A DNA stretch of 32,000 bases. It comes from Candidatus Peribacter riflensis. GTDB lineage: Bacteria; Patescibacteriota; Gracilibacteria; Peribacterales; Peribacteraceae. Each line of letters begins with the position of its first letter. The first letter of the stretch is position 1. Position numbers and translations under genes: made by a program. The stretch is taken from the NCBI GenBank assembly GCA_001430755.1, contig CP013062.1, positions 480,001 to 512,000 on the forward strand. The letters run 5' to 3'. The notes under the pieces were generated by a model. That model saw only the letters and a program-made list of their open reading frames with translations. It was not told where the DNA came from and made no database searches. Positions 1,978 to 12,900 of the stretch are shown piece by piece.

Positions 1978-2028
1978 AAAAAGCGCCGTATCTGCCATCC
2001 GCATTCCGGATGACAGGGCGCTTTTCTT
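1978..2028. terminator. bidirectional rho-independent terminator between convergent genes
   Basis: AAAAAGCGCC (1978-1987) pairs with GGCGCTTTT (2017-2025). They enclose an inner stem CTGCCATCCG/CGGATGACAG (1992-2016, 9 of 10 bp). An A-tract on one side and a T-tract on the other allow function on both strands. Confidence 0.65.
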
Positions 2029-2065
2029 AAAGGCAGCAAACACTGCCAGGGGAGTGGAAGAACTC

Positions 2066-2449
2066 CTACACCAGTTGCGATCCGTACAGCAGCAGGCCGC
2101 CCATGACCACAGCGATGATCCCGAGGATTGGCCGGACTGCTCCGTCCCCCAGCACGCGGTCTGTGAGGTTGACCAGCACGGCGGGCCGCCATGCGGCGGT
2201 GATACCCTTGAGCAATCCCAGCCATGCGATCAGGCGGATAATGCCCGCAGGATCGGTGCCGATGCTGTAATCCGCACGGAGCGTGAGGGCGCAGAGCACG
2301 ACGATCAGGGCGCCGGAGCAGCGCATGTGCAGAGTATTGCGCATAAATTCCTGCACGAAGGCGACGGTGGCCTCGCCGTTGACGAGCAGGGGAATGCCGA
2401 CGAGCAGAACGAGAATGCCGGTGATTTGGGCGAAGGTTTGAAGGTCCAT
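2066..2449 (-). CDS. hypothetical integral membrane protein (127 aa)
   Basis: Internal ATG at 2449 (MDLQTFAQITGILVLLVG...) of track ORF 2066..2560, 23 nt after the tspO stop. There are several hydrophobic segments. No family recognised. Confidence 0.55.
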   Translation of the reverse strand: MDLQTFAQITGILVLLVGIPLLVNGEATVAFVQEFMRNTLHMRCSGALIVVLCALTLRADYSIGTDPAGIIRLIAWLGLLKGITAAWRPAVLVNLTDRVLGDGAVRPILGIIAVVMGGLLLYGSQLV

Positions 2450-2472
2450 GATCGTGCAGTGTACACCACCCT

Positions 2473-2877
2473 TCACCGGTTCAACCACGTCACGCTGGCC
2501 TGCAGCACGGTGGCAAAGCTCACCCAGAGCAGGTAGGGCACCTGCGCCCACATCACCCAAGCCGAGAGGGGAGCGACGGTGCGGAGCATCCAGATGAGGG
2601 ATCCCAGTACCACGAGGATATCGAGGAATGCGAGCAGATTATTCCGGAGTCCGAACTGAATGGGCGAGAAGGCTAGGTTGGCGACGAGGTTGATCCCGAA
2701 CGGCACGATCACCCACGCAGACCAGTGCCCTTTGATCACCTTCCAGAGCACGAAGCTGAAGGAGATGAGGATGATGACGTACAGCACGGTCCACACGGGT
2801 CCGAAGATCCATGCCGGCGGAGCGAAGAACGGTTTCTTCTGCGCCGCGTACCAGAGGGCGGTATCTGCGGGGTTCAT
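2473..2877 (-). CDS. tspO: TspO/MBR family tryptophan-rich sensory protein
   Basis: The K-P-x-F-x-P-P-x-W-x-F-G-P-V-W-x-x-L-Y signature (KKPFFAPPAWIFGPVWTVLY) is present, and the five-TM-like sequence is Trp-rich. Its ATG overlaps the upstream stop as ATGA (2874-2877). Confidence 0.85.
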   Translation of the reverse strand: MNPADTALWYAAQKKPFFAPPAWIFGPVWTVLYVIILISFSFVLWKVIKGHWSAWVIVPFGINLVANLAFSPIQFGLRNNLLAFLDILVVLGSLIWMLRTVAPLSAWVMWAQVPYLLWVSFATVLQASVTWLNR

Positions 2878-3212
2878 CCGGAATGGGGGGAACGGGATGA
2901 GGCCTTGAGTCTAGCTTTTATGGTATTCGCCCACTTCTTGCCGGGATCCCCGCCCCACAGGAACCACGCGATGAGCCCGTTACTGGGGTGATCGGGATTG
3001 CCGAAGTCTTTGCCGCGCTTATCGACCTCGTGCCGCGCGAAGAAGCTGACCATGCGCAGGATCGTGCGCTGAGAGAGGGGACGGCGGTTCTTTAAGTCCC
3101 GCGCCCGCGCCACCCCGACCATTGTTCCCCCGCGCTTCCACTTTCGGCGGAGCCGTAAACCCTCTGCGGCATAGCGGGCGACTTCGACAGGGGGGATGAA
3201 GGAGGAGGACAC
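2874..3212 (-). CDS. hypothetical protein; start uncertain (GTG 3212, or ATG 3338/3344)
   Basis: The conserved-looking core is RGGTMVGVARARDL...RMVSFFARHEVD...AWFLWGGDPGKKWA. An ATG at 3344 would overlap the divergent gene at 3283 by about 60 nt, so GTG 3212 is preferred. It is translationally coupled to tspO. Confidence 0.45.
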   Translation of the reverse strand: MSSSFIPPVEVARYAAEGLRLRRKWKRGGTMVGVARARDLKNRRPLSQRTILRMVSFFARHEVDKRGKDFGNPDHPSNGLIAWFLWGGDPGKKWANTIKARLKASSRSPHSG

Positions 3213-3282
3213 GGAGGAAGTATAGAGGATCTCTGCGGTTTTGATGACTGGCCGCTGATCCTCCGCTAGATTCCCTCCCTTT

Positions 3283-4146
3283 ATGGATCTACGCGCAACG
3301 CTCGATTCCGGCCGCGTCCTGCTGCTCGATGGCGCCATGGGCACGGAGCTTCATAAGCATGGCCTGCAGGGCCAGTGCGATGCCCACCAGAAGCATCCCG
3401 GCAAGGTCATCGCCCTTCACGATGCCTACCTGAGGGCGGGGGCGCAGGCCATCACCACCAATACCTTTCTCTTGAACAGGCTCACGCCTGCCGCCGTGCG
3501 CGACAAGCCCGACCTCGATTTCTTGAATCGCGTGGGTGTGGAGCTGGCGAGGAATGTGGCCGGGGAGGACCACTTTGTTCTGGGTGGTATGGGGCCCACC
3601 GGACGGGTCTTCGACATGGATCCCCTCATGACCGATGAGGCGGTACGGGCGGCCTATCTGGCACAGGCGCAGATCCTGGCCGAAGAGGGGACAGATGGTC
3701 TCATCATCGAGACGATGACGAGTTTGCGTGAGGCACTGCTGGCCCTCGAAGCCTGCCGCGAGGTGACCGATAAGCCCGTGATTGTTTCGATGTCCTACTA
3801 CACCATGAACAGGGGTATCCGGACGATGAATGGCGAGACTGCGGCGGAGTGTGCGAAGCTTCTCACAGAGAGGGGAGCGGACTCCGTCGGAACCAATTGC
3901 AGCACCTTCCTGATGCGTGAGATGGCGCAGGTGGTCGCGGCCATGCGCTCCGCTGTGACAAAGGTGCCGATCATCGCGCAGCCCAATGCCGGCCAGCCGC
4001 ATGGTGAGGAGGGGACGTACATCATGACGCCGCAGGAGTTTGCGGATGGAGTAAAGCTTTGTATCGAAAAAGGTGCGACGATGGTGGGTGGGTGTTGCGG
4101 GGCGGGGCCGGAGTGTATTGCGGAGGTGGGGAAACGGCTTAGTTAA
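3283..4146 (+). CDS. homocysteine S-methyltransferase domain protein (MmuM/MetH N-domain-like)
   Basis: N-terminal LLLDGAMGTEL and C-terminal GGCCG (zinc-ligand Cys pair), plus an internal GTNCS, are typical of the Pfam S-methyl_trans family. It ends in a double stop, TAA TAG. Confidence 0.85.
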   Translation: MDLRATLDSGRVLLLDGAMGTELHKHGLQGQCDAHQKHPGKVIALHDAYLRAGAQAITTNTFLLNRLTPAAVRDKPDLDFLNRVGVELARNVAGEDHFVLGGMGPTGRVFDMDPLMTDEAVRAAYLAQAQILAEEGTDGLIIETMTSLREALLALEACREVTDKPVIVSMSYYTMNRGIRTMNGETAAECAKLLTERGADSVGTNCSTFLMREMAQVVAAMRSAVTKVPIIAQPNAGQPHGEEGTYIMTPQEFADGVKLCIEKGATMVGGCCGAGPECIAEVGKRLS

Positions 4147-4342
4147 TAGGAACAGTAAGCTTGGCAAGCTTGGTGGACTCGGTGCGTAAACGTTGGAACC
4201 AGCTCCAGCAGATAATATTTGAGTGGTATGAGCAGCTTCGCCATATCAATGGAAGATTCGGATTGCAGCCTCTAATAGCGCAATGGACATCTGTCTTCAC
4301 ATACAAGAGGAGAATGGAAACTCCAATGCGTCATGGTGTAGA

Positions 4343-5089
4343 ATGGCGATGCAATCTATGCAAAGGAGGGTCATTAGCCTTTTCACCGGCGCAGGAGGTT
4401 TGGATATTGGCTTTGAGAAGGCAGGCTTTGAAATTTCTATTGCTGTTGAGTCCGATCCTGCTTGTTGCTCAACACTTAGAGCAAATAGGCCGTCTCTAAT
4501 TGTTATTGAAGATAAGATTGAGAATATCCCATCAGAGAAGATTCTGACACTTTCAGGGCTTCAACCGCTAGAGACAGATTTAGTTATTGGCGGTCCACCT
4601 TGCCAACCATTTAGCCTAGCCGGTGAACGCAGAGGACTGGAGGACCCCAAAGGTATGTTGCTGATGGAATTCGTTCGGGTCATACGAGAGACCCTTCCTA
4701 AGGGTTTTGTGCTTGAAAATGTAAAAGGATTACTAAACTGGGACGGGGGAAGGGCGAGAGATCTACTTCTGACTGAATTGGTTAAACCAATTTCCTACAA
4801 GGGAAAAACTTATCAATACGAAGTTGAGGTCAGGCTACTTAATGCATGTGACTATGGAGTGCCACAAAAACGAGAACGCGTTGTATTTGTTGGAAATCGA
4901 ATCGGCGTTAAATTCAAGTTTCCAACTCCTACGCATGCTGATAAGACTATTGCATCAATAAAGAAACTTAAGAAATATCGCACAGTTTGGGATGCAATTG
5001 GCAACTTGCCACCCCCTGATGAACCATCTGAAACAGCAAAAATGGTGGCACAGACAATTCGTGGTAGAATTGCTAAGCATGGTTACTAA
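4343..5089 (+). CDS. DNA (cytosine-5)-methyltransferase, N-terminal part / alpha subunit (motifs I-VIII)
   Basis: Contains motif I SLFTGAGGLDIGF, motif IV GGPPCQPFS, motif VI ENVKGL and motif VIII QKRERVVFVG. Candidate starts are ATG 4343, 4349 or 4358. The frame stops at 5087-5089, inside the variable (TRD) region. Confidence 0.85.
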   Translation: MAMQSMQRRVISLFTGAGGLDIGFEKAGFEISIAVESDPACCSTLRANRPSLIVIEDKIENIPSEKILTLSGLQPLETDLVIGGPPCQPFSLAGERRGLEDPKGMLLMEFVRVIRETLPKGFVLENVKGLLNWDGGRARDLLLTELVKPISYKGKTYQYEVEVRLLNACDYGVPQKRERVVFVGNRIGVKFKFPTPTHADKTIASIKKLKKYRTVWDAIGNLPPPDEPSETAKMVAQTIRGRIAKHGY

Positions 5090-5480
5090 GACGATAACAA
5101 ATCATCAGGTTACTGCTCATGCCCCAACCACGGTTGCCAAGATTTTGAAGGTGGCGATTGGTTACAAGCTATCAGAGCAGCAGAAAACTTTTGGCTCTAC
5201 TTATCGTCGCCTAGACCCATCAAAGCCATCGCCCACAGTGACAAGAAGCGGTTATCGAGACTTTATTCATCCCTACGAACATCGGATGCTCACAGTACGG
5301 GAACTGGCTTGCTTACAATCTTTTCCTTCAAATTGGGTGTTCAAAGGCGTTCGATTGGACTCATATAGTTCAAGGCGTCAAACAACGATGACTCAATTCG
5401 GACAAGTTGGTAACGCTGTTCCCCCGTTACTAGCCGAGGTAATAGCCCGGTCAATTATGGAACAGTTTTTCCCAAACTAG
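5079..5480 (+). CDS. DNA (cytosine-5)-methyltransferase, C-terminal part / beta subunit (TRD, motifs IX-X)
   Basis: This lies in a different frame. It carries ...ITNHQ..., motif IX RMLTVRELACLQSFP and motif X GNAVPPLLA. ATG 5079 overlaps the alpha stop by 11 nt, and the frame is open back to ATG 4992. Confidence 0.8.
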   Translation: MVTKTITNHQVTAHAPTTVAKILKVAIGYKLSEQQKTFGSTYRRLDPSKPSPTVTRSGYRDFIHPYEHRMLTVRELACLQSFPSNWVFKGVRLDSYSSRRQTTMTQFGQVGNAVPPLLAEVIARSIMEQFFPN

Positions 5481-5484
5481 AGTT

Positions 5485-6522
5485 ATGCCAAAAGTTCCAA
5501 AAGAGGTCACAAAGGAGCAGTACATGCTAAAATCCACCTTCTTCTTGGAGAAGCTTGATTCTTTTGGTTTTTTCAAACTATACGAAGATATCAAGAAGAT
5601 TGCCTTTGACCATGCAAAAGCTCACTCTTGGAATGAGCGAAAAGATTGGTGCATTGATGAACAAGCTTGGGAGGCGATTAAGCGTACTAAAATTAATCCT
5701 CTCCTTGTCTTTGCACACCCCAATATTCTCAAGATTTATCCGGCAATGCTTAAATATTACCGATCAGTTGCAATGCTCCCTCAGAAAGGGCTAAGTGCCA
5801 TTTCTGGCTTTAGCGGGATACGTGCTGTTGAGAATGAGAAAAAAGGAATTCCTGAGAAGAAATTAGGGCAGGTTCTATGCGCTTTAAACGAGGTGATGTC
5901 TACATTGATTAAACTTGTAAGCGCCCTTGATGAAGAAAAGATAAAGGGAATGATGTTTGCTACCGCAGGAACAACAATCGATGGTTCTTGGAGAAATCAA
6001 ATCGGAAGTGAGGGGGAGAGGGTTATTCGATCATTGATCCTCAGAAAATTACTTGATAACAAAGAAGTCACCGCATTCGTTTTAAAAAATGGCAGCTCAA
6101 AGAGCACTGAAGAATGGGACAATGAAGATCCTGTGAAGCACATTAATGAAATTAAATCATTCACAAATATAAATGGAACAGTGGTGATCTTTGGCTCTGA
6201 ACCAGACATTGAGTTCCGCAATAGCGAAGGTAAAGTTCTTGGCGGAGTAGAGATCAAAGCCGGATTAGATCCGGCGGGTGCGCTTGAAAGGCTTGGGGCA
6301 ATGTTTAAATCTTTTGAAAACATGCTCCAACAGTATCCTGCCGCAGCAACAATCCTAATCGCTTCCTGCATTACAGATGAGGTTGGCCAGCGCTTACGTA
6401 CATCACGCTCTGTGCAGCAGACTTACATAACAACGGACGTTATGAGTAATGAAAAAGGACAGGCTGATAAATTTTGCAACTCAATAAGAGGGATATTAGA
6501 GTTAGTAGAGAAAAGAATGTAA
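5485..6522 (+). CDS. putative type II restriction endonuclease (PD-(D/E)xK; possibly BsoBI/AvaI/AquI-like)
   Basis: It starts 5 nt after the MTase stop and shares the same AT-rich composition. SEPDIEF...GGVEIKAGLDPAGA fits a PD...ExK catalytic core. The E-x-K-x-G-x-DPAGA stretch matches my unverified recollection of BsoBI. Confidence 0.55.
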   Translation: MPKVPKEVTKEQYMLKSTFFLEKLDSFGFFKLYEDIKKIAFDHAKAHSWNERKDWCIDEQAWEAIKRTKINPLLVFAHPNILKIYPAMLKYYRSVAMLPQKGLSAISGFSGIRAVENEKKGIPEKKLGQVLCALNEVMSTLIKLVSALDEEKIKGMMFATAGTTIDGSWRNQIGSEGERVIRSLILRKLLDNKEVTAFVLKNGSSKSTEEWDNEDPVKHINEIKSFTNINGTVVIFGSEPDIEFRNSEGKVLGGVEIKAGLDPAGALERLGAMFKSFENMLQQYPAAATILIASCITDEVGQRLRTSRSVQQTYITTDVMSNEKGQADKFCNSIRGILELVEKRM

Positions 6523-6545
6523 CCAATTATTCTTATATCTTATAA

Positions 6546-6570
6546 TGGTGGAGATATCGAGAATCGAACC
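6546..6570 (-). other. tRNA 3'-end-like fragment (T-loop, acceptor, CCA); possible att remnant
   Basis: The reverse complement reads GGTTCGATTCTCGATATCTCCACCA. This gives a G53-TTCGATT T-loop, T-stem 3' strand, 7-nt acceptor strand, discriminator A and CCA. The 5' complement needed for a T-stem or acceptor stem is absent, so it is not a functional tRNA. Confidence 0.35.
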
Positions 6571-6612
6571 ATTGACTACTTCCCATGCATCAACCAATAT
6601 TATTTCAGGAAA

Positions 6613-6641
6613 GCAAAAAATAGCCTTCCTGAAGGCAGGCT
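6613..6641 (-). terminator. rho-independent terminator of the minus-strand AT-rich operon
   Basis: The minus strand reads AGCCTGCC-TTCA-GGAAGGCT (one mismatch) followed by ATTTTTTGC. It lies 30 nt after the stop at 6671. Confidence 0.6.
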
Positions 6642-6670
6642 TATTCTTGAGAAGTCACTTTGCGATCCGC

Positions 6671-6817
6671 TCAGTCCAAACAAACTTTTATGCCTTTGTT
6701 CTCTTCGATGGAGGAAAGGATTTTGGGATCATGAAATTGCATCCAATCGCGCTCGTCGCGGAATTGTCTGATTTTATTGAGGACTTGCCTGATCGGATCT
6801 TGCCTATCAATTTGCAT
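6671..6817 (-). pseudogene. truncated MazG-like (dCTPase-type) nucleotide pyrophosphohydrolase, N-terminal 48 codons only
   Basis: Not in the track because it is under 60 aa. My translation is MQIDRQDPIRQVLNKIRQFRDERDWMQFHDPKILSSIEENKGIKVCLD*. The FRDERDW-QFH-PK-L stretch is the typical N-terminus of roughly 100-120-aa all-alpha NTP pyrophosphohydrolases. Similarity is lost where the ExxE helix should begin. Confidence 0.5.
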
Positions 6818-7610
6818 AATTAGCCTGGAAATTCTTTAGCCACTGATCTGCAGCCGGCTTTCCAAATCTTTCCAGCATACAAGAGTAAGTCGCTCCATTA
6901 CAATTATAGATGAAGCAATCACTGTTATTTTCACATTTATACGACAGCAACAGAGATGAAATAGTTGCCCCACCGTATGTACCAGTAAGATCAACAGGAA
7001 CTGCAATGAGACTAGCAGAATCTGCGTTACCAGTATTGTTTATGAAATTAATAATGTGAGTAGGTTTACCTGTTTTTTCAAAATAATCACCAGAGGAAGC
7101 TATTTCATCTCCAAGCAGATTAATTTTTAGCATAACTTCTTGATTAGGAGCGATTAGGCCACCGCGGCGATTAGTATCGGAAATATCAATTTGATTTTTT
7201 GATATCCTAGAGGACTTAATAAATCCGGTCTCTCGTGCGAAGTTAAAAAGAACGACAACGGGAGAATCTGATGATACTTTGCCAGATATATCTAGGTTTA
7301 CCTGAGAGAATTTCCCAAGATAAATTATCTTGGGAATTTTTTCATAGTTATCTATGGAAAAAGGGTTGGAAGAAGGGACATAAGGTCCTTGAAGCAGTTC
7401 AAGAGTTCTGATATCTGAATCGGGGATTGGTTTTGGCAACACTGCTTCAGGCATTTTGGGCTTTATCCAATTAATCTCAACTAACCTGAGTCTGATAAAA
7501 GGAATAATTCTATTAATTACTGAATCAAAAACCAATAAAAATAAAACTGCTGAAATAATGAACAAAACGATTCCTTTGATAGCCGCTTTAACTTTGGCAT
7601 TTAGAATCAT
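6807..7610 (-). CDS. hypothetical N-terminally membrane-anchored protein (267 aa)
   Basis: An N-terminal hydrophobic helix (IVLFIISAVLFLLVF) is followed by a Ser/Asn-rich region and a Cys-containing C-terminus. The gene is AT-rich and overlaps the upstream gene by 23 nt. No family recognised. Confidence 0.6.
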   Translation of the reverse strand: MILNAKVKAAIKGIVLFIISAVLFLLVFDSVINRIIPFIRLRLVEINWIKPKMPEAVLPKPIPDSDIRTLELLQGPYVPSSNPFSIDNYEKIPKIIYLGKFSQVNLDISGKVSSDSPVVVLFNFARETGFIKSSRISKNQIDISDTNRRGGLIAPNQEVMLKINLLGDEIASSGDYFEKTGKPTHIINFINNTGNADSASLIAVPVDLTGTYGGATISSLLLSYKCENNSDCFIYNCNGATYSCMLERFGKPAADQWLKNFQANYAN

Positions 7611-7968
7611 ACTTTATGAATGGAATAAATTTCATTACGCAATGTGGAATGGAACAAAGAATTATTGCAGATGCAATAAACAAAAAATTTCCAAGCCAAA
7701 GAAATACTGCTAGTAGTAGCAATTCTGTTACAGAAACATCTTTTGTATTCCAAAAAAATTTGCATACAATCCACTCGTTAAGGGAACCCGATTTCCCATG
7801 ACTAATAAATAGGGGGAGAAAAATAAATACGAGAACAAAAAAACCAGTTAGAAATGAGACTTCAAGTTGAGAATATGAAATATTCACTAATTTGTTATAA
7901 CAAAAAATAGATAGGCCTACTATAAGCCACAAAAGAGTCATGTTGATAATAATTAATAAGGACTTCAT
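7588..7968 (-). CDS. hypothetical polytopic membrane protein (126 aa)
   Basis: It has about four hydrophobic segments and is the first gene of the AT-rich minus-strand operon. No family recognised. Confidence 0.55.
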   Translation of the reverse strand: MKSLLIIINMTLLWLIVGLSIFCYNKLVNISYSQLEVSFLTGFFVLVFIFLPLFISHGKSGSLNEWIVCKFFWNTKDVSVTELLLLAVFLWLGNFLFIASAIILCSIPHCVMKFIPFIKYDSKCQS

Positions 7969-8158
7969 AAATTATGTCTGTGCTAAGTTTGATGGTCACT
8001 TGAAATTTGTGCAAGGACATTTGCGCTACTAAGTACTCTGGCAAGATTATTTCCCATGAAACTTCCTATGCACCTCCTTCAGCTGCGGATCCTTCGCTCT
8101 TGTTCAGGACAAGTTCATCACTTCCCCCGAAACTTCCCCTGCTTCCCTCCACTCCACT

Positions 8159-8419
8159 TCACCTCGCCGCACTCCTCTCTGAGCTCACGTCAGCCAAGAC
8201 AGCGACAATGAGGATGATCACGCGCCACGTGTTCCACTCCCCGTGGTACCAATGCGCGACTGCGCTGTACCAGAGAAGGGTTAAGGGCAGAAAGATAAAG
8301 CCGAGGATCGGCCAGAGCTTTGTGACAAAAACGCCCTGAAACCATGTCGTCATCAACCAGAGTCCGGCGATCACGAATCGCGGTGCAATGAGGCCGATGA
8401 GTCCGATGATGAGTGGCAT
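8159..8419 (-). CDS. small hypothetical membrane protein (86 aa)
   Basis: Internal ATG at 8419 (MPLIIGLIGLIAPRFVIAGLWLM...) of track ORF 8159..8575. It is Trp-rich and hydrophobic, with host-like GC. Confidence 0.5.
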   Translation of the reverse strand: MPLIIGLIGLIAPRFVIAGLWLMTTWFQGVFVTKLWPILGFIFLPLTLLWYSAVAHWYHGEWNTWRVIILIVAVLADVSSERSAAR

Positions 8420-8738
8420 AGGTGGTGAAAGAGGGGAGTGTACACCTGCGGGCCTGTAGAGGAGGTGAGTCAGTGGTCTCTCATCTTCTGAAGCGGCAAT
8501 GATCTTTACAAGCAGGTGTACGCGTGTACACTCGCAGTATGAATTTCTTGAAGAGAGAAAAGCGTGCGCGTACAATACAAGTATTCCTCCCCACGGGATT
8601 CTCCCGTGGCCCCCGGGCGGCCCGAGCCCCCGGGAATCTTTGTATGTTCACATGTCTCAACGCGTAATCGCTTTCATTGATGGTTTCATTTCTTCAGTAT
8701 TCTGCTCAGGCCATTTGTCTTTTGCCCGCTGAATTCGT

Positions 8739-9236
8739 ATGAATGCTCCAGCGCCCAAAAACATCGCATATATTGACGGCGCGAACCTACACAAGAGCAT
8801 CAGTGCCCTCGGCTGGAAACTTGATTACCGTGTGTTTCGTCGCTGGCTGGAACAAAAGTACGGTGTTGAGGCTGTATACATATTCATCGGATTAATCCCT
8901 GCACAGCGTTCACTCTATCTTCGTCTCCAGGAATATGGCTACGTACTGGTCTACAAAGAAGTCACATACGACGGAGAGGGCAGAGTGAAGGGTAATTGTG
9001 ATGCCGATCTTGTGCTCAAGGTCACTCAAGATTACTACGAAGGCCGGATTGCGCAGGCGATTCTCGTTGCGAGTGACGGCGACTACAGCAGTTTGGTCGC
9101 CTTTCTGAAGGAAAAGCGCGTTTTCCGTACGTTACTTTCGCCGAGTAATAATTGTTCGTTCCTCCTGCGAAAGCTCAATATCCCAATCGTCTATCTCAAT
9201 ATGCTCCGAGGGAAGCTGGAGAAGAAAAACCCTTAA
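8739..9236 (+). CDS. NYN domain (LabA/PIN-like) putative RNase
   Basis: IAYIDGANL, KGNCDADLV and VASDGDYSSL match the acidic-residue signature of NYN/LabA-like domains. Confidence 0.8.
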   Translation: MNAPAPKNIAYIDGANLHKSISALGWKLDYRVFRRWLEQKYGVEAVYIFIGLIPAQRSLYLRLQEYGYVLVYKEVTYDGEGRVKGNCDADLVLKVTQDYYEGRIAQAILVASDGDYSSLVAFLKEKRVFRTLLSPSNNCSFLLRKLNIPIVYLNMLRGKLEKKNP

Positions 9237-9244
9237 ACGAAAAA

Positions 9245-9282
9245 GCCCCCGTCACGGACGTATCCGTGAAAGGGTCTTCTTC
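9245..9282 (+). terminator. putative intrinsic terminator after the NYN gene
   Basis: Stem TCACGGA (9252-9258) / TCCGTGA (9263-9269) has loop CGTA and is flanked by CCC/GGG. It is followed by the T-rich TCTTCTTC. Confidence 0.45.
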
Positions 9283-9455
9283 ATAGGGATACTCTCAGTC
9301 TACTCCCATCAACAGGATCATTTCAATACCTATAATTCTATGAGATAAAACTATCTGCTGTGATATTTCTTGTGCACTTCTTTAAATAACGAGAGGGAGT
9401 AACCTTCGGACGGAACCTTAGGTGTGCCCTCTCATCGTGATGCGTGCATCATAGC

Positions 9456-10382
9456 TCATTTCCCATGGAATTTCTTATGAACTTCTTTTAATTGAGGATT
9501 CGTGACGTGTGTATATATTTGGGTTGTTGAAAGATCCTTATGCCCCAGCATCTCCTGCACACTCCTCAAATCCGCCCCATTGCGCAGTAAGTCCGTCGCG
9601 AAGGAGTGGCGCAGGGTGTGTGGCGAAGGATTCGAGAGTATGCCGGCCTCAAGGGCATATCGCTTCACGATGCGGTAGATCATATTTGCGGATATCCTGA
9701 ATCGCTCACCCGGCGGCATCTCGAACGTGGCTTTCTGCAGATGACTGATGAAGAGCGGAGTGAGATGATCGAGTCTCGCTTCGAGGTATGCCTTCAGCGC
9801 GGTGCAGGCGGCGTCAGACAGAAAAACTACGCGCAGTTTTCCTCTCTTTCCGCGAACGCTGATTTCCTTGGTCTTAAAGTTCAGGTCAGTGCGGTTGAGA
9901 GAGCGCAACTCTGCGAGACGCATGCCGGTAGAGAAGAAGAGCTCCAAAATCGCCTTATCTCGCTTGCCCTCGCGGGTAGTGGTATCAGGAGAAGAGAGGA
10001 GGAGTGCGAGGTCATCGGCGAAGAGCACCTTGACCTTGCGCTGTTCCTCTTTGAAGCGCTGGATGCGATCAGGAGGAAGCACGTCCATTTCTTCTTCTTG
10101 AATAAGGTAACGCAAGAAAGCCCGCAGTATTGTCAAATGATGATTCTTTGTACGGATAGAGAGTTCACGTCCATTACGGGCTCGAAATGAGTGAAGCGCC
10201 GTCTTATAGATACGGATCGTCTGCTTACTGAAGAGGAGGGGACTTTCGATTTGAGAGAGCTTCAAAAGAAGATCAAGGGATTGCCTGTAGGACCGGATCG
10301 TAAGAGGAGACTTATTCTGCTCCGCCTGGAGGAAAGTAAGATAGCGGTCAATGGCCTGAGCAAGTGTCGTTGGATGGCTCAT
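9456..10382 (-). CDS. site-specific tyrosine recombinase, XerC/XerD family
   Basis: An N-terminal SAM-like domain is followed by the catalytic signature ...GMRLAEL...HTLRHSFATDLLRNGADLRSVQEMLGHKDLSTTQIYTHV (R, HxxR, H, Y). Confidence 0.85.
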   Translation of the reverse strand: MSHPTTLAQAIDRYLTFLQAEQNKSPLTIRSYRQSLDLLLKLSQIESPLLFSKQTIRIYKTALHSFRARNGRELSIRTKNHHLTILRAFLRYLIQEEEMDVLPPDRIQRFKEEQRKVKVLFADDLALLLSSPDTTTREGKRDKAILELFFSTGMRLAELRSLNRTDLNFKTKEISVRGKRGKLRVVFLSDAACTALKAYLEARLDHLTPLFISHLQKATFEMPPGERFRISANMIYRIVKRYALEAGILSNPSPHTLRHSFATDLLRNGADLRSVQEMLGHKDLSTTQIYTHVTNPQLKEVHKKFHGK

Positions 10383-12761: not shown

Positions 12762-12823
12762 GAAATCAGTGGCGCTTCATTGTGCCATTCCCGGGCTGGA
12801 ATGGCTAGCGATGTACCAGAATT

Positions 12824-12900
12824 GTCATGGTGAGCCCTGTCGAACCATGACACGTGATGTCGCCCCTCGACAGTGCTCGGGGTGACAAGCTCACCATGAC
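12824..12900. repeat. REP-like 28-nt hairpin units (2.5 copies)
   Basis: GTCATGG-TGAGCCCTGTCGAA-CCATGAC lies at 12824-12851 and GTCGCCCC-TCGACAGTGCTC-GGGGTGAC at 12859-12886. A half unit, GCTCACCATGAC, runs to 12900. Confidence 0.8.

What the first reader, a model, noticed from the sequence alone, without database searches (positions are those of the whole stretch)
4343..5480. C5-cytosine methyltransferase split into two overlapping ORFs within the TRD (M.AquI-like alpha/beta) or frameshifted
Motifs I-VIII lie in one frame that ends at TAA 5087-5089. The TRD remainder and motifs IX-X lie in the +1 frame, which is open from 4992 and has an ATG at 5079, 11 nt before the alpha stop. There is no long homopolymer at the junction; only an A5 run lies nearby at 5037-5041. 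Both halves keep intact catalytic motifs, and an apparently intact endonuclease gene follows. A dead methylase would therefore be lethal unless the endonuclease were also dead. From established knowledge, M.AquI is a natural m5C methylase made of two polypeptides, encoded by overlapping ORFs split between motifs VIII and IX. That is the same topology seen here.
Basis: partly seen in the sequence, partly recalled or inferred. Interest (0 to 1): 0.6.

Follow-up and report, generated by a model that had tools for sequence, protein, structure and literature searches.

The report
Natural two-piece M.AquI-type cytosine methyltransferase
The "broken" DNA cytosine methyltransferase is a normal member of the M.AquI family, whose enzyme is always made as two proteins from two genes overlapping by 11 bases; here it sits with an intact restriction enzyme on a recently acquired DNA island.

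Summary
One frame (4343/4358..5089) carries C5-methyltransferase motifs I-VIII. The +1 frame (ATG 5079..5480) carries the distal target-recognition region and motifs IX-X. The two ORFs overlap by 11 nt.

The split is neither a sequencing error nor decay.
- The halves are 56% and 75% identical to the characterised M.AquI alpha (P34882) and beta (P34883).
- In an M.AquI-orthologous locus and in 24 of the 25 other related loci examined, from at least seven phyla, alpha ends in (H/Y)GY-stop and beta starts at an ATG exactly 11 nt before the end of that stop codon.
- All loci with lower alpha identity (47% or less), bar one that is split differently, are ordinary single-ORF enzymes.
- An independently deposited assembly is 100% identical across the junction.

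The downstream gene is a full-length XcyI-family endonuclease with its PD...ExK motif intact. M.AquI itself pairs with a BsoBI-type enzyme. The genome has 346 CCCGGG sites and no other C5-methyltransferase. The cassette lies in a 32-45% GC island that same-genus relatives lack.

This is a new member of a known kind, of modest interest. The scan has flagged split C5-methyltransferases before on other DNA, mostly the nested M.EcoHK31I-like phage type.

The parts
4343..5089 (+). M alpha subunit gene. It is 248 aa from ATG 4343. ATG 4358 (243 aa) is the start that aligns with the M.AquIA N-terminus and the one called in an NCBI record. It carries motifs I-VIII plus the proximal half of the target-recognition region and ends ...AKHGY-TAA.
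   Evidence: Pfam PF00145 positions 2-195, E 1e-51. Aligns to M.HaeIII residues 3-172. 56% identical to M.AquIA P34882. Keeps all 76 invariant residues of 17 alpha homologues.
5079..5480 (+). M beta subunit gene, 133 aa in the +1 frame. It carries the distal target-recognition region plus motifs IX and X. The family-consensus start is ATG 5079; gene callers used ATG 5019 (153 aa).
   Evidence: Pfam PF00145 positions 204-323. Aligns to M.HaeIII 247-321. 75% identical to M.AquIB P34883. Keeps all 67 invariant residues of 18 beta homologues. Stand-alone homologues of 128-146 aa are 75-83% identical.
5079..5089 (+). The 11-nt alpha/beta overlap ATGGTTACTAA. It is an instance of the family motif ATGGNTAYTRR, with the beta start codon inside the His-Gly codons of alpha. 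It is the likely site of translational coupling.
   Evidence: The same 11-nt overlap occurs in 25 of 26 split loci, including the M.AquI-orthologous L100. The His/Tyr codon always ends in T, which preserves the ATG.
5485..6522 (+). Type II restriction endonuclease of the XcyI family, 345 aa, starting 4 nt after the beta stop codon. It has a PD...ExK motif (EPD ... VEIK).
   Evidence: Pfam PF09571, E 4.6e-15, above the cut-off. Full-length alignment at 42-62% identity to nine homologues that follow split methyltransferases, with all 68 invariant residues kept. It is the only RE_XcyI match in the genome.
4150..8100 (.). Low-GC island (32-45% GC in a 58.5% GC genome). It carries the M-alpha/M-beta/R operon plus two unknown minus-strand ORFs (6807-7610, 7588-7968).
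   Evidence: Composition profile. Genome GC. No match to window 4150-8100 in eight same-genus genomes, apart from one 71-nt piece, although both flanks are conserved and syntenic.

Best explanation
This is a horizontally acquired Type II restriction-modification operon. Its C5-cytosine methyltransferase belongs to the M.AquI family and is made as two polypeptides. Alpha (243-248 aa) supplies the AdoMet-binding and catalytic core, motifs I-VIII with the PCQ cysteine, plus the first half of the target-recognition region. Beta (133 aa) supplies the rest of the recognition region and motifs IX-X. Beta starts at an ATG 11 nt before the end of alpha's stop codon, so ribosomes finishing alpha probably restart on beta (translational coupling; inferred). 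The two chains then assemble into one active enzyme, as shown experimentally for M.AquI but only inferred here. That enzyme would methylate a cytosine in CCCGGG, or in the wider CYCGRG that contains it, and so protect the 346 chromosomal CCCGGG sites from the XcyI-type endonuclease encoded 4 nt downstream. Shown here: the architecture, the homology, the conservation of the split, and the intactness of all three genes. Inferred: the coupling, the assembly, the specificity and in vivo activity.
For: Direct homology to the characterised enzyme: alpha is 56% identical to M.AquIA over 243 of its 248 aa, and both end in HGY. Beta is 75% identical to M.AquIB.

Same gene layout: the M.AquI-orthologous locus L100 has alpha of 248 aa and beta of 139 aa with an 11-nt overlap.

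Conservation of the split:
- The 120 best alpha hits of 5.8 billion proteins are alpha-length (234-294 aa), or 305-340 aa with an N-terminal HTH. None is a fused protein of about 385 aa.
- There are more than 900 clusters of stand-alone beta-like proteins.
- 21 loci with alpha identity of 46% or more, from Cyanobacteriota, Pseudomonadota, Bacteroidota, Bacillota, Lentisphaerota, Kiritimatiellota and Ignavibacteriota, are all split with beta in the +1 frame. Loci with 47% alpha identity or less are single ORFs, except L032, which is split in the +2 frame.
- The junction ATGGNTAYTRR is kept in 25 of 26 loci, and the synonymous third base of the His/Tyr codon is always T.
- In L015, L019, L020 and L021 the beta frame is closed one or two codons before the ATG, which leaves no room for a frameshift fusion.

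Intactness: all invariant residues are kept in alpha, beta and R.

Sequence accuracy: the independent assembly GCA_003500185.1 is 100% identical over 6,462 bp including the junction.

Need for the enzyme: alpha and beta are the only PF00145 matches in the genome, and no PF01555 match exceeds the cut-off. The genome has 346 CCCGGG and 1,641 CYCGRG sites.

Literature: M.AquI consists of two polypeptides split in the variable region, and both are needed (PMC3404938, citing Karreman & de Waard 1990 and Pinarbasi et al. 2002).
Against: No expression, protein or methylome data exist for this organism. There is no clear Shine-Dalgarno sequence before either ATG 5079 or the alpha start, and the promoter scan is no better than shuffled sequence. 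The genome shows no avoidance of CCCGGG (O/E 1.12). That fits recent acquisition, but it equally fits an inactive endonuclease. Specificity is inferred only from the Pfam family of the endonuclease.
Confidence: 0.9

Rival explanations
1. A sequencing or assembly indel, or a recent frameshift mutation, has broken an ordinary single-ORF dcm gene. The locus would then be a pseudogene, perhaps with a dead endonuclease.
For: The genome is assembled from a metagenome, according to earlier notes that I did not test. Reads could not be checked. There is no CCCGGG avoidance.
Against: The break falls at exactly the codon where characterised M.AquI and 24 other relatives end alpha and start beta. A random indel would not recreate the HGY-stop and the ATG 11 nt before its end. 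All invariant residues are kept in all three proteins. An independent assembly is identical. No fused close relative exists among the best hits.
Confidence: 0.03
2. Programmed +1 ribosomal frameshifting in the overlap produces a single fused methyltransferase, and the separate beta ORF is incidental.
For: Beta is in the +1 frame of alpha. In this window the beta frame is open for 98 nt before alpha's stop.
Against: In L015, L019, L020 and L021 the beta frame has a stop one or two codons before the conserved ATG. A shift would therefore have to occur within about 11-14 nt that contain no slippery run. The ATG is conserved through a synonymous site, as expected for a start codon. M.AquI was shown to consist of two polypeptides (PMC3404938).
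Confidence: 0.03
3. The methyltransferase is functional and two-subunit, but the downstream endonuclease is inactive, so the enzyme acts as an orphan or epigenetic methylase.
For: There is no depletion of CCCGGG or CYCGRG sites. No activity data exist.
Against: R has the same 345-aa length as its closest relatives and keeps all 68 invariant residues, including the PD...ExK motif. It is tightly coupled to beta with a 4-nt spacer, as in the related loci. The low-GC island looks recently acquired, so lack of site avoidance is expected.
Confidence: 0.1

Closest known systems
M.AquI (alpha P34882 and beta P34883) of Picosynechococcus/Synechococcus sp. PCC 7002 (Agmenellum quadruplicatum), recognising CYCGRG
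   Same: It is a two-polypeptide C5-methyltransferase split inside the variable region. Alpha carries motifs I-VIII and beta carries motifs IX-X. The two share the 11-nt overlap and the HGY C-terminus of alpha. Identity is 56% for alpha and 75% for beta.
   Different: The partner endonuclease here is XcyI-family (PF09571), not BsoBI/AvaI-family (PF09194) as in the AquI-type locus. On the alpha+beta tree the window falls in a separate, well-supported clade of XcyI-partnered enzymes. The host is a small-genome bacterium and the system sits on a low-GC island.
M.EcoHK31I (alpha/beta C5-methyltransferase, YGGCCR)
   Same: It is also a natural C5-methyltransferase that needs two polypeptides encoded in overlapping frames (PMC3404938).
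   Different: In M.EcoHK31I only motif IX is in the small subunit, while the large subunit has motifs I-VIII, X and the recognition domain. Here the genes overlap by only 11 nt, and beta carries half the recognition region plus motifs IX and X.
XcyI/Cfr9I/XmaI-type restriction endonucleases (Pfam RE_XcyI; C^CCGGG)
   Same: The downstream ORF matches PF09571 above the gathering score and has a PD...ExK motif.
   Different: From my own recollection (not tested here), the classical XcyI/Cfr9I systems use N4-cytosine methyltransferases. Here the partner is a split C5 enzyme. The cleavage specificity of this protein is untested.

Membership tests
M.AquI family of two-subunit C5-cytosine methyltransferases | Significant full-length sequence similarity of both halves to M.AquI alpha and M.AquI beta | tested here: met
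   Alpha is 56% identical (E 2e-105) to P34882, aligned to the last residue. Beta is 75% identical (E 5e-75) to P34883.
M.AquI family of two-subunit C5-cytosine methyltransferases | Split inside the variable (target-recognition) region: motifs I-VIII in alpha, motifs IX-X in beta | tested here: met
   Pfam profile positions 2-195 in alpha and 204-323 in beta. M.HaeIII residues 3-172 align to alpha and 247-321 to beta. The description of M.AquI is in PMC3404938.
M.AquI family of two-subunit C5-cytosine methyltransferases | Two overlapping ORFs, with beta starting shortly before the alpha stop | tested here: met
   An 11-nt overlap in the window, in the M.AquI-orthologous locus L100, and in 25 of 26 family loci overall.
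M.AquI family of two-subunit C5-cytosine methyltransferases | Both polypeptides are made and both are required for methylation | not testable with these tools
   This needs expression and methylation assays. It is known for M.AquI only from the literature cited in PMC3404938.
AquI restriction-modification system (isoschizomer of AvaI/BsoBI, CYCGRG) | Cognate endonuclease of the BsoBI/AvaI family | tested here: not met
   The window's R is PF09571 RE_XcyI. The AquI-type locus L100 and 12 other loci have PF09194 Endonuc-BsobI or a tblastn match to the L100 endonuclease.
AquI restriction-modification system (isoschizomer of AvaI/BsoBI, CYCGRG) | Methylation specificity CYCGRG | not testable with these tools
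   No alignment column separates XcyI-partnered from BsoBI-partnered methyltransferases. A shared specificity is therefore possible but unproven.
M.EcoHK31I-type nested two-subunit C5-methyltransferases | The small subunit carries only motif IX, and the large subunit carries motifs I-VIII, X and the recognition domain | tested here: not met
   Beta here carries motifs IX and X plus the distal recognition region, and the overlap is only 11 nt.
XcyI-family Type II endonucleases (PF09571) | Pfam match above the gathering score, and an intact PD...(D/E)xK catalytic motif | tested here: met
   56.1 bits against a cut-off of 25. D241, E256 and K258 are invariant in 10 aligned homologues.

The most novel reading that the evidence does not exclude
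All members of this split methyltransferase family may share one broad specificity (CYCGRG, as for M.AquI). If so, the same two-piece methylase acts as a portable protector that can be coupled either to a BsoBI-type endonuclease (CYCGRG) or to an unrelated XcyI-type endonuclease that cuts the nested subset CCCGGG. That would explain how endonuclease genes have been swapped behind an almost unchanged methyltransferase. Supporting observations: beta is 71-82% identical to the window's across both partner types and has 67 invariant residues. No alignment column separates the two partner types. XcyI-partnered L098 is sister to BsoBI-partnered L010 on the tree.
Probability: 0.35. Interest if true: 0.45.

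Novelty: new member of a known kind. Interest (0 to 1): 0.3.

Why it matters
Annotation: the pair should not be flagged as a frameshifted pseudogene. The beta start should be moved to 5079, because gene callers extend it to 5019. More than a thousand protein clusters in public data share this layout.

Biology: the locus gives a small-genome, candidate-phyla-type bacterium a probably active, recently acquired restriction-modification system. It also shows that the M.AquI-type split, with its exact 11-nt overlap, is an old feature under selection across many phyla and is not a peculiarity of one cyanobacterium.

The pairing of one methyltransferase family with two unrelated endonuclease families of nested specificity is a tidy system for studying how restriction-modification modules are reshuffled.

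Tried and rejected
I substituted an independent assembly.
- The original M.AquI paper (PMC208427) is not held. Details of M.AquI rest on PMC3404938 and on the Swiss-Prot sequences found through cluster look-ups.
M.AquI was reached through the third protein search and cluster members instead.
- Site-avoidance test: CCCGGG and CYCGRG are not depleted in the genome, so this gives no support for long-term restriction pressure.
- Island borders: there are no convincing flanking direct repeats and no tRNA.
- Promoter and terminator scan: not above shuffled expectation.
- Fused relatives have different recognition regions, so they do not show how the junction arose.
- From memory I thought the 48-aa ORF at 6674-6817(-) looked like a MazG-type fragment. 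Pfam gives no match, so I dropped that reading.
- I did not fold the proteins. A single-chain model of either half would not bear on the verdict.

Full report
**The observation**

The window has an ORF in one frame from 4283 to the TAA at 5087-5089, with in-frame ATGs at 4343, 4349 and 4358. A second ORF lies in the +1 frame from ATG 4992 to TAG 5478-5480, with further ATGs at 5019 and 5079.

- Pfam DNA_methylase (PF00145) matches the first ORF on profile positions 2-195 of 324 (E 1e-51) and the second on positions 204-323 (E 2.7e-12). NCBIfam TIGR00675 behaves the same way.
- Against solved structures, the first product aligns to M.HaeIII residues 3-172 and the second to residues 247-321. The break therefore lies inside the variable, target-recognition region between motifs VIII and IX.
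The only correction is that the A5 run sits at 5038-5042.
- The next ORF (5485-6522, 345 aa) matches the XcyI restriction endonuclease family PF09571 above its cut-off.

**Whether the split is an error or a feature**

A search of 5.8 billion proteins with alpha returned 120 best hits at 52-72% identity (apart from the window's own sequence). Almost all are 234-268 aa, one is 280 aa and one 294 aa. The few of 305-340 aa carry an extra N-terminal HTH domain. No fused enzyme of about 385 aa appears, although that length was within the search range. Searches with beta found 927 and 1,436 clusters of short stand-alone proteins, and the best of them are 128-146 aa and 75-92% identical to the query used.

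Genomic context was read for nine hits from Sporomusa, Vibrio lentus, Pseudanabaenaceae and metagenomes. In each, an alpha gene of 241-256 aa is followed by a beta gene of 130-138 aa that overlaps it by exactly 11 nt, and then by an endonuclease gene.

A scan of one genome per prokaryotic species gave a sharp boundary.

- All 21 loci with alpha identity of 46% or more are split, with beta in the +1 frame and alpha nearly always ending in (H/Y)GY-stop. They come from Cyanobacteriota, Pseudomonadota, Bacteroidota, Bacillota, Lentisphaerota, Kiritimatiellota and Ignavibacteriota.
- Every locus with 47% alpha identity or less is a single fused ORF, except one Longimicrobiales locus that is split in the +2 frame.

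The junction reads ATGGNTAYTRR in 25 of 26 loci; one Oscillatoria locus has an 8-nt variant. The His/Tyr codon that supplies the A and T of the ATG always ends in T, although C would be synonymous. In four loci the beta frame is closed one or two codons before that ATG. That excludes a frameshift fusion there and marks the ATG as a genuine start codon.

**Direct test against M.AquI**

A 139-aa hit from Synechococcus moorigangaii belongs to the same 90% cluster as Swiss-Prot P34883, M.AquIB of PCC 7002. Its upstream neighbour clusters with P34882, M.AquIA.

- The window's beta is 75% identical to M.AquIB.
- Its alpha is 56% identical to M.AquIA, aligned through to the shared C-terminal HGY.
- In the S. 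moorigangaii locus, alpha (248 aa) and beta (139 aa) overlap by 11 nt and are followed by a BsoBI-family endonuclease.
- PMC3404938 states that M.AquI (CYCGRG) consists of two polypeptides. [quoted passage not shown] It cites Karreman & de Waard 1990 and Pinarbasi et al. 2002.

The window's enzyme therefore meets every sequence-level criterion of the M.AquI family.

**Sequence accuracy**

The tool for finding sequencing runs was unavailable, so reads were not mapped. An independently deposited assembly, GCA_003500185.1, carries the same locus and is 100% identical over 6,462 bp (window 2019-8480), including the junction. It may derive from the same samples, so this is weaker than a read pile-up. 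The family-wide conservation of the exact junction makes an indel artefact very unlikely.

**Intactness and need**

- Alpha keeps all 76 invariant positions of 17 homologues.
- Beta keeps all 67 invariant positions of 18 homologues, M.AquIB among them.
- The endonuclease has the same 345-aa length as its closest relatives. It keeps all 68 invariant positions of ten homologues, including EPD...ExK.
- In the whole 1.248-Mb genome the only PF00145 matches are these two ORFs. There is no Vsr, no N4/N6 methyltransferase (PF01555) above the cut-off, and only this one RE_XcyI gene.
- The genome holds 346 CCCGGG and 1,641 CYCGRG sites, with no depletion.

If the endonuclease is active, the split methylase must be active too. 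This last step is inference.

**Setting**

The three genes lie in a 32-45% GC stretch (about 4150-8100) of a 58.5% GC genome. Eight same-genus genomes conserve both flanks in synteny: the homocysteine S-methyltransferase at 3283-4146 and the region from about 8100 onward, which includes a tyrosine recombinase at 9456-10382. They have no match to the island apart from one 71-nt piece, and they carry other DNA there instead. The cassette is therefore a recent horizontal acquisition in a variable spot, which also explains the lack of site avoidance. Earlier notes of this scan name the organism Candidatus Peribacter riflensis, a candidate-phyla-radiation bacterium. I did not test that.

**Mechanism**

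Alpha provides cofactor binding and catalysis, and beta completes the recognition region and the small domain. The conserved overlap, with beta's ATG 11 nt before the end of alpha's stop codon, suggests termination-reinitiation coupling and roughly equal amounts of the two chains. The endonuclease starts 4 nt after beta's stop, and in relatives from 13 nt of overlap to a 3-nt gap, so all three genes form one tight operon. Assembly into an active heterodimer is shown for M.AquI only.

**What differs from M.AquI**

The partner endonuclease differs. Across 26 loci, 12 have an XcyI-type and 13 a BsoBI-type endonuclease, and one shows neither. On a maximum-likelihood tree of alpha+beta, built on 24 of these loci after dropping two duplicates, the partner type needs only two changes, against a shuffled mean of 8. 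The window sits in a clade with 98/99 support of nine rows, eight of them with XcyI-type partners. The M.AquI-like locus sits among BsoBI-partnered enzymes.

Even so, no alignment column separates the two groups, and the beta subunit is almost invariant across both. CCCGGG is a subset of CYCGRG. One broad methylase specificity could therefore serve both endonuclease families. This is the most novel reading left open.

**Verdict**

The frameshift and pseudogene alternative is rejected with high confidence. This is a new member of a known, experimentally characterised kind, so interest is modest. The useful by-products are the correct beta start (5079, not 5019), the evidence that the exact 11-nt split is ancient and widespread, and the endonuclease-swap pattern.

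Noticed in passing
window 3283-10382; G002:C2 22140-32465; G007:C19 26068-32033: The space between the homocysteine S-methyltransferase gene and a genus-conserved tyrosine recombinase (9456-10382, minus strand) holds different DNA in each same-genus genome. In G002 and G007 a 40-45-nt copy of the 3' end of the methyltransferase gene (window 4088-4132, 95-96% identical) recurs 1.3-1.5 kb downstream, which looks like an att-type duplication. No such repeat was found in this window.
   Followed up: partly
window 12820-12888: A 65-70-nt intergenic sequence recurs at many places in this genome and in all same-genus genomes at 76-97% identity. It may belong to one of the structured repeat families that earlier notes report for Peribacteria.
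   Followed up: no
proteins P0038, P0045, P0046, P0062, P0081, P0090, P0092-P0094, P0103, P0110, P0114: A subset of alpha subunits (305-340 aa) carries an N-terminal helix-turn-helix domain (PF13443/PF01381). This suggests self-regulation of the split methylase in place of a separate controller protein.
   Followed up: no
L032:2-2142 (Longimicrobiales MAG): A more distant relative (alpha 44%, beta 56% identical) is also split, but with beta in the +2 frame, a different alpha end (YGKK-stop), and a long beta-frame ORF. It may be an independent or derived split.
   Followed up: no
window 5019-5480; L101:3001-3462: Gene callers annotate beta as 153 aa from ATG 5019, overlapping alpha by 71 nt. 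Family alignment places the start at ATG 5079 (133 aa).
   Followed up: yes
L096:6262-6615; L097:2600-3037: In one of the window's closest relatives a vsr (very-short-patch repair) gene directly follows the XcyI-type endonuclease, as is typical of active m5C systems. This genome has no Vsr match.
   Followed up: partly
window 6545-8100: The rest of the low-GC island holds ORFs with no Pfam match: 6807-7610 (minus strand, 267 aa) and 7588-7968 (minus strand, 126 aa, hydrophobic). A 71-nt piece (6723-6793) is 89% identical to a site in same-genus genome G004.
   Followed up: partly
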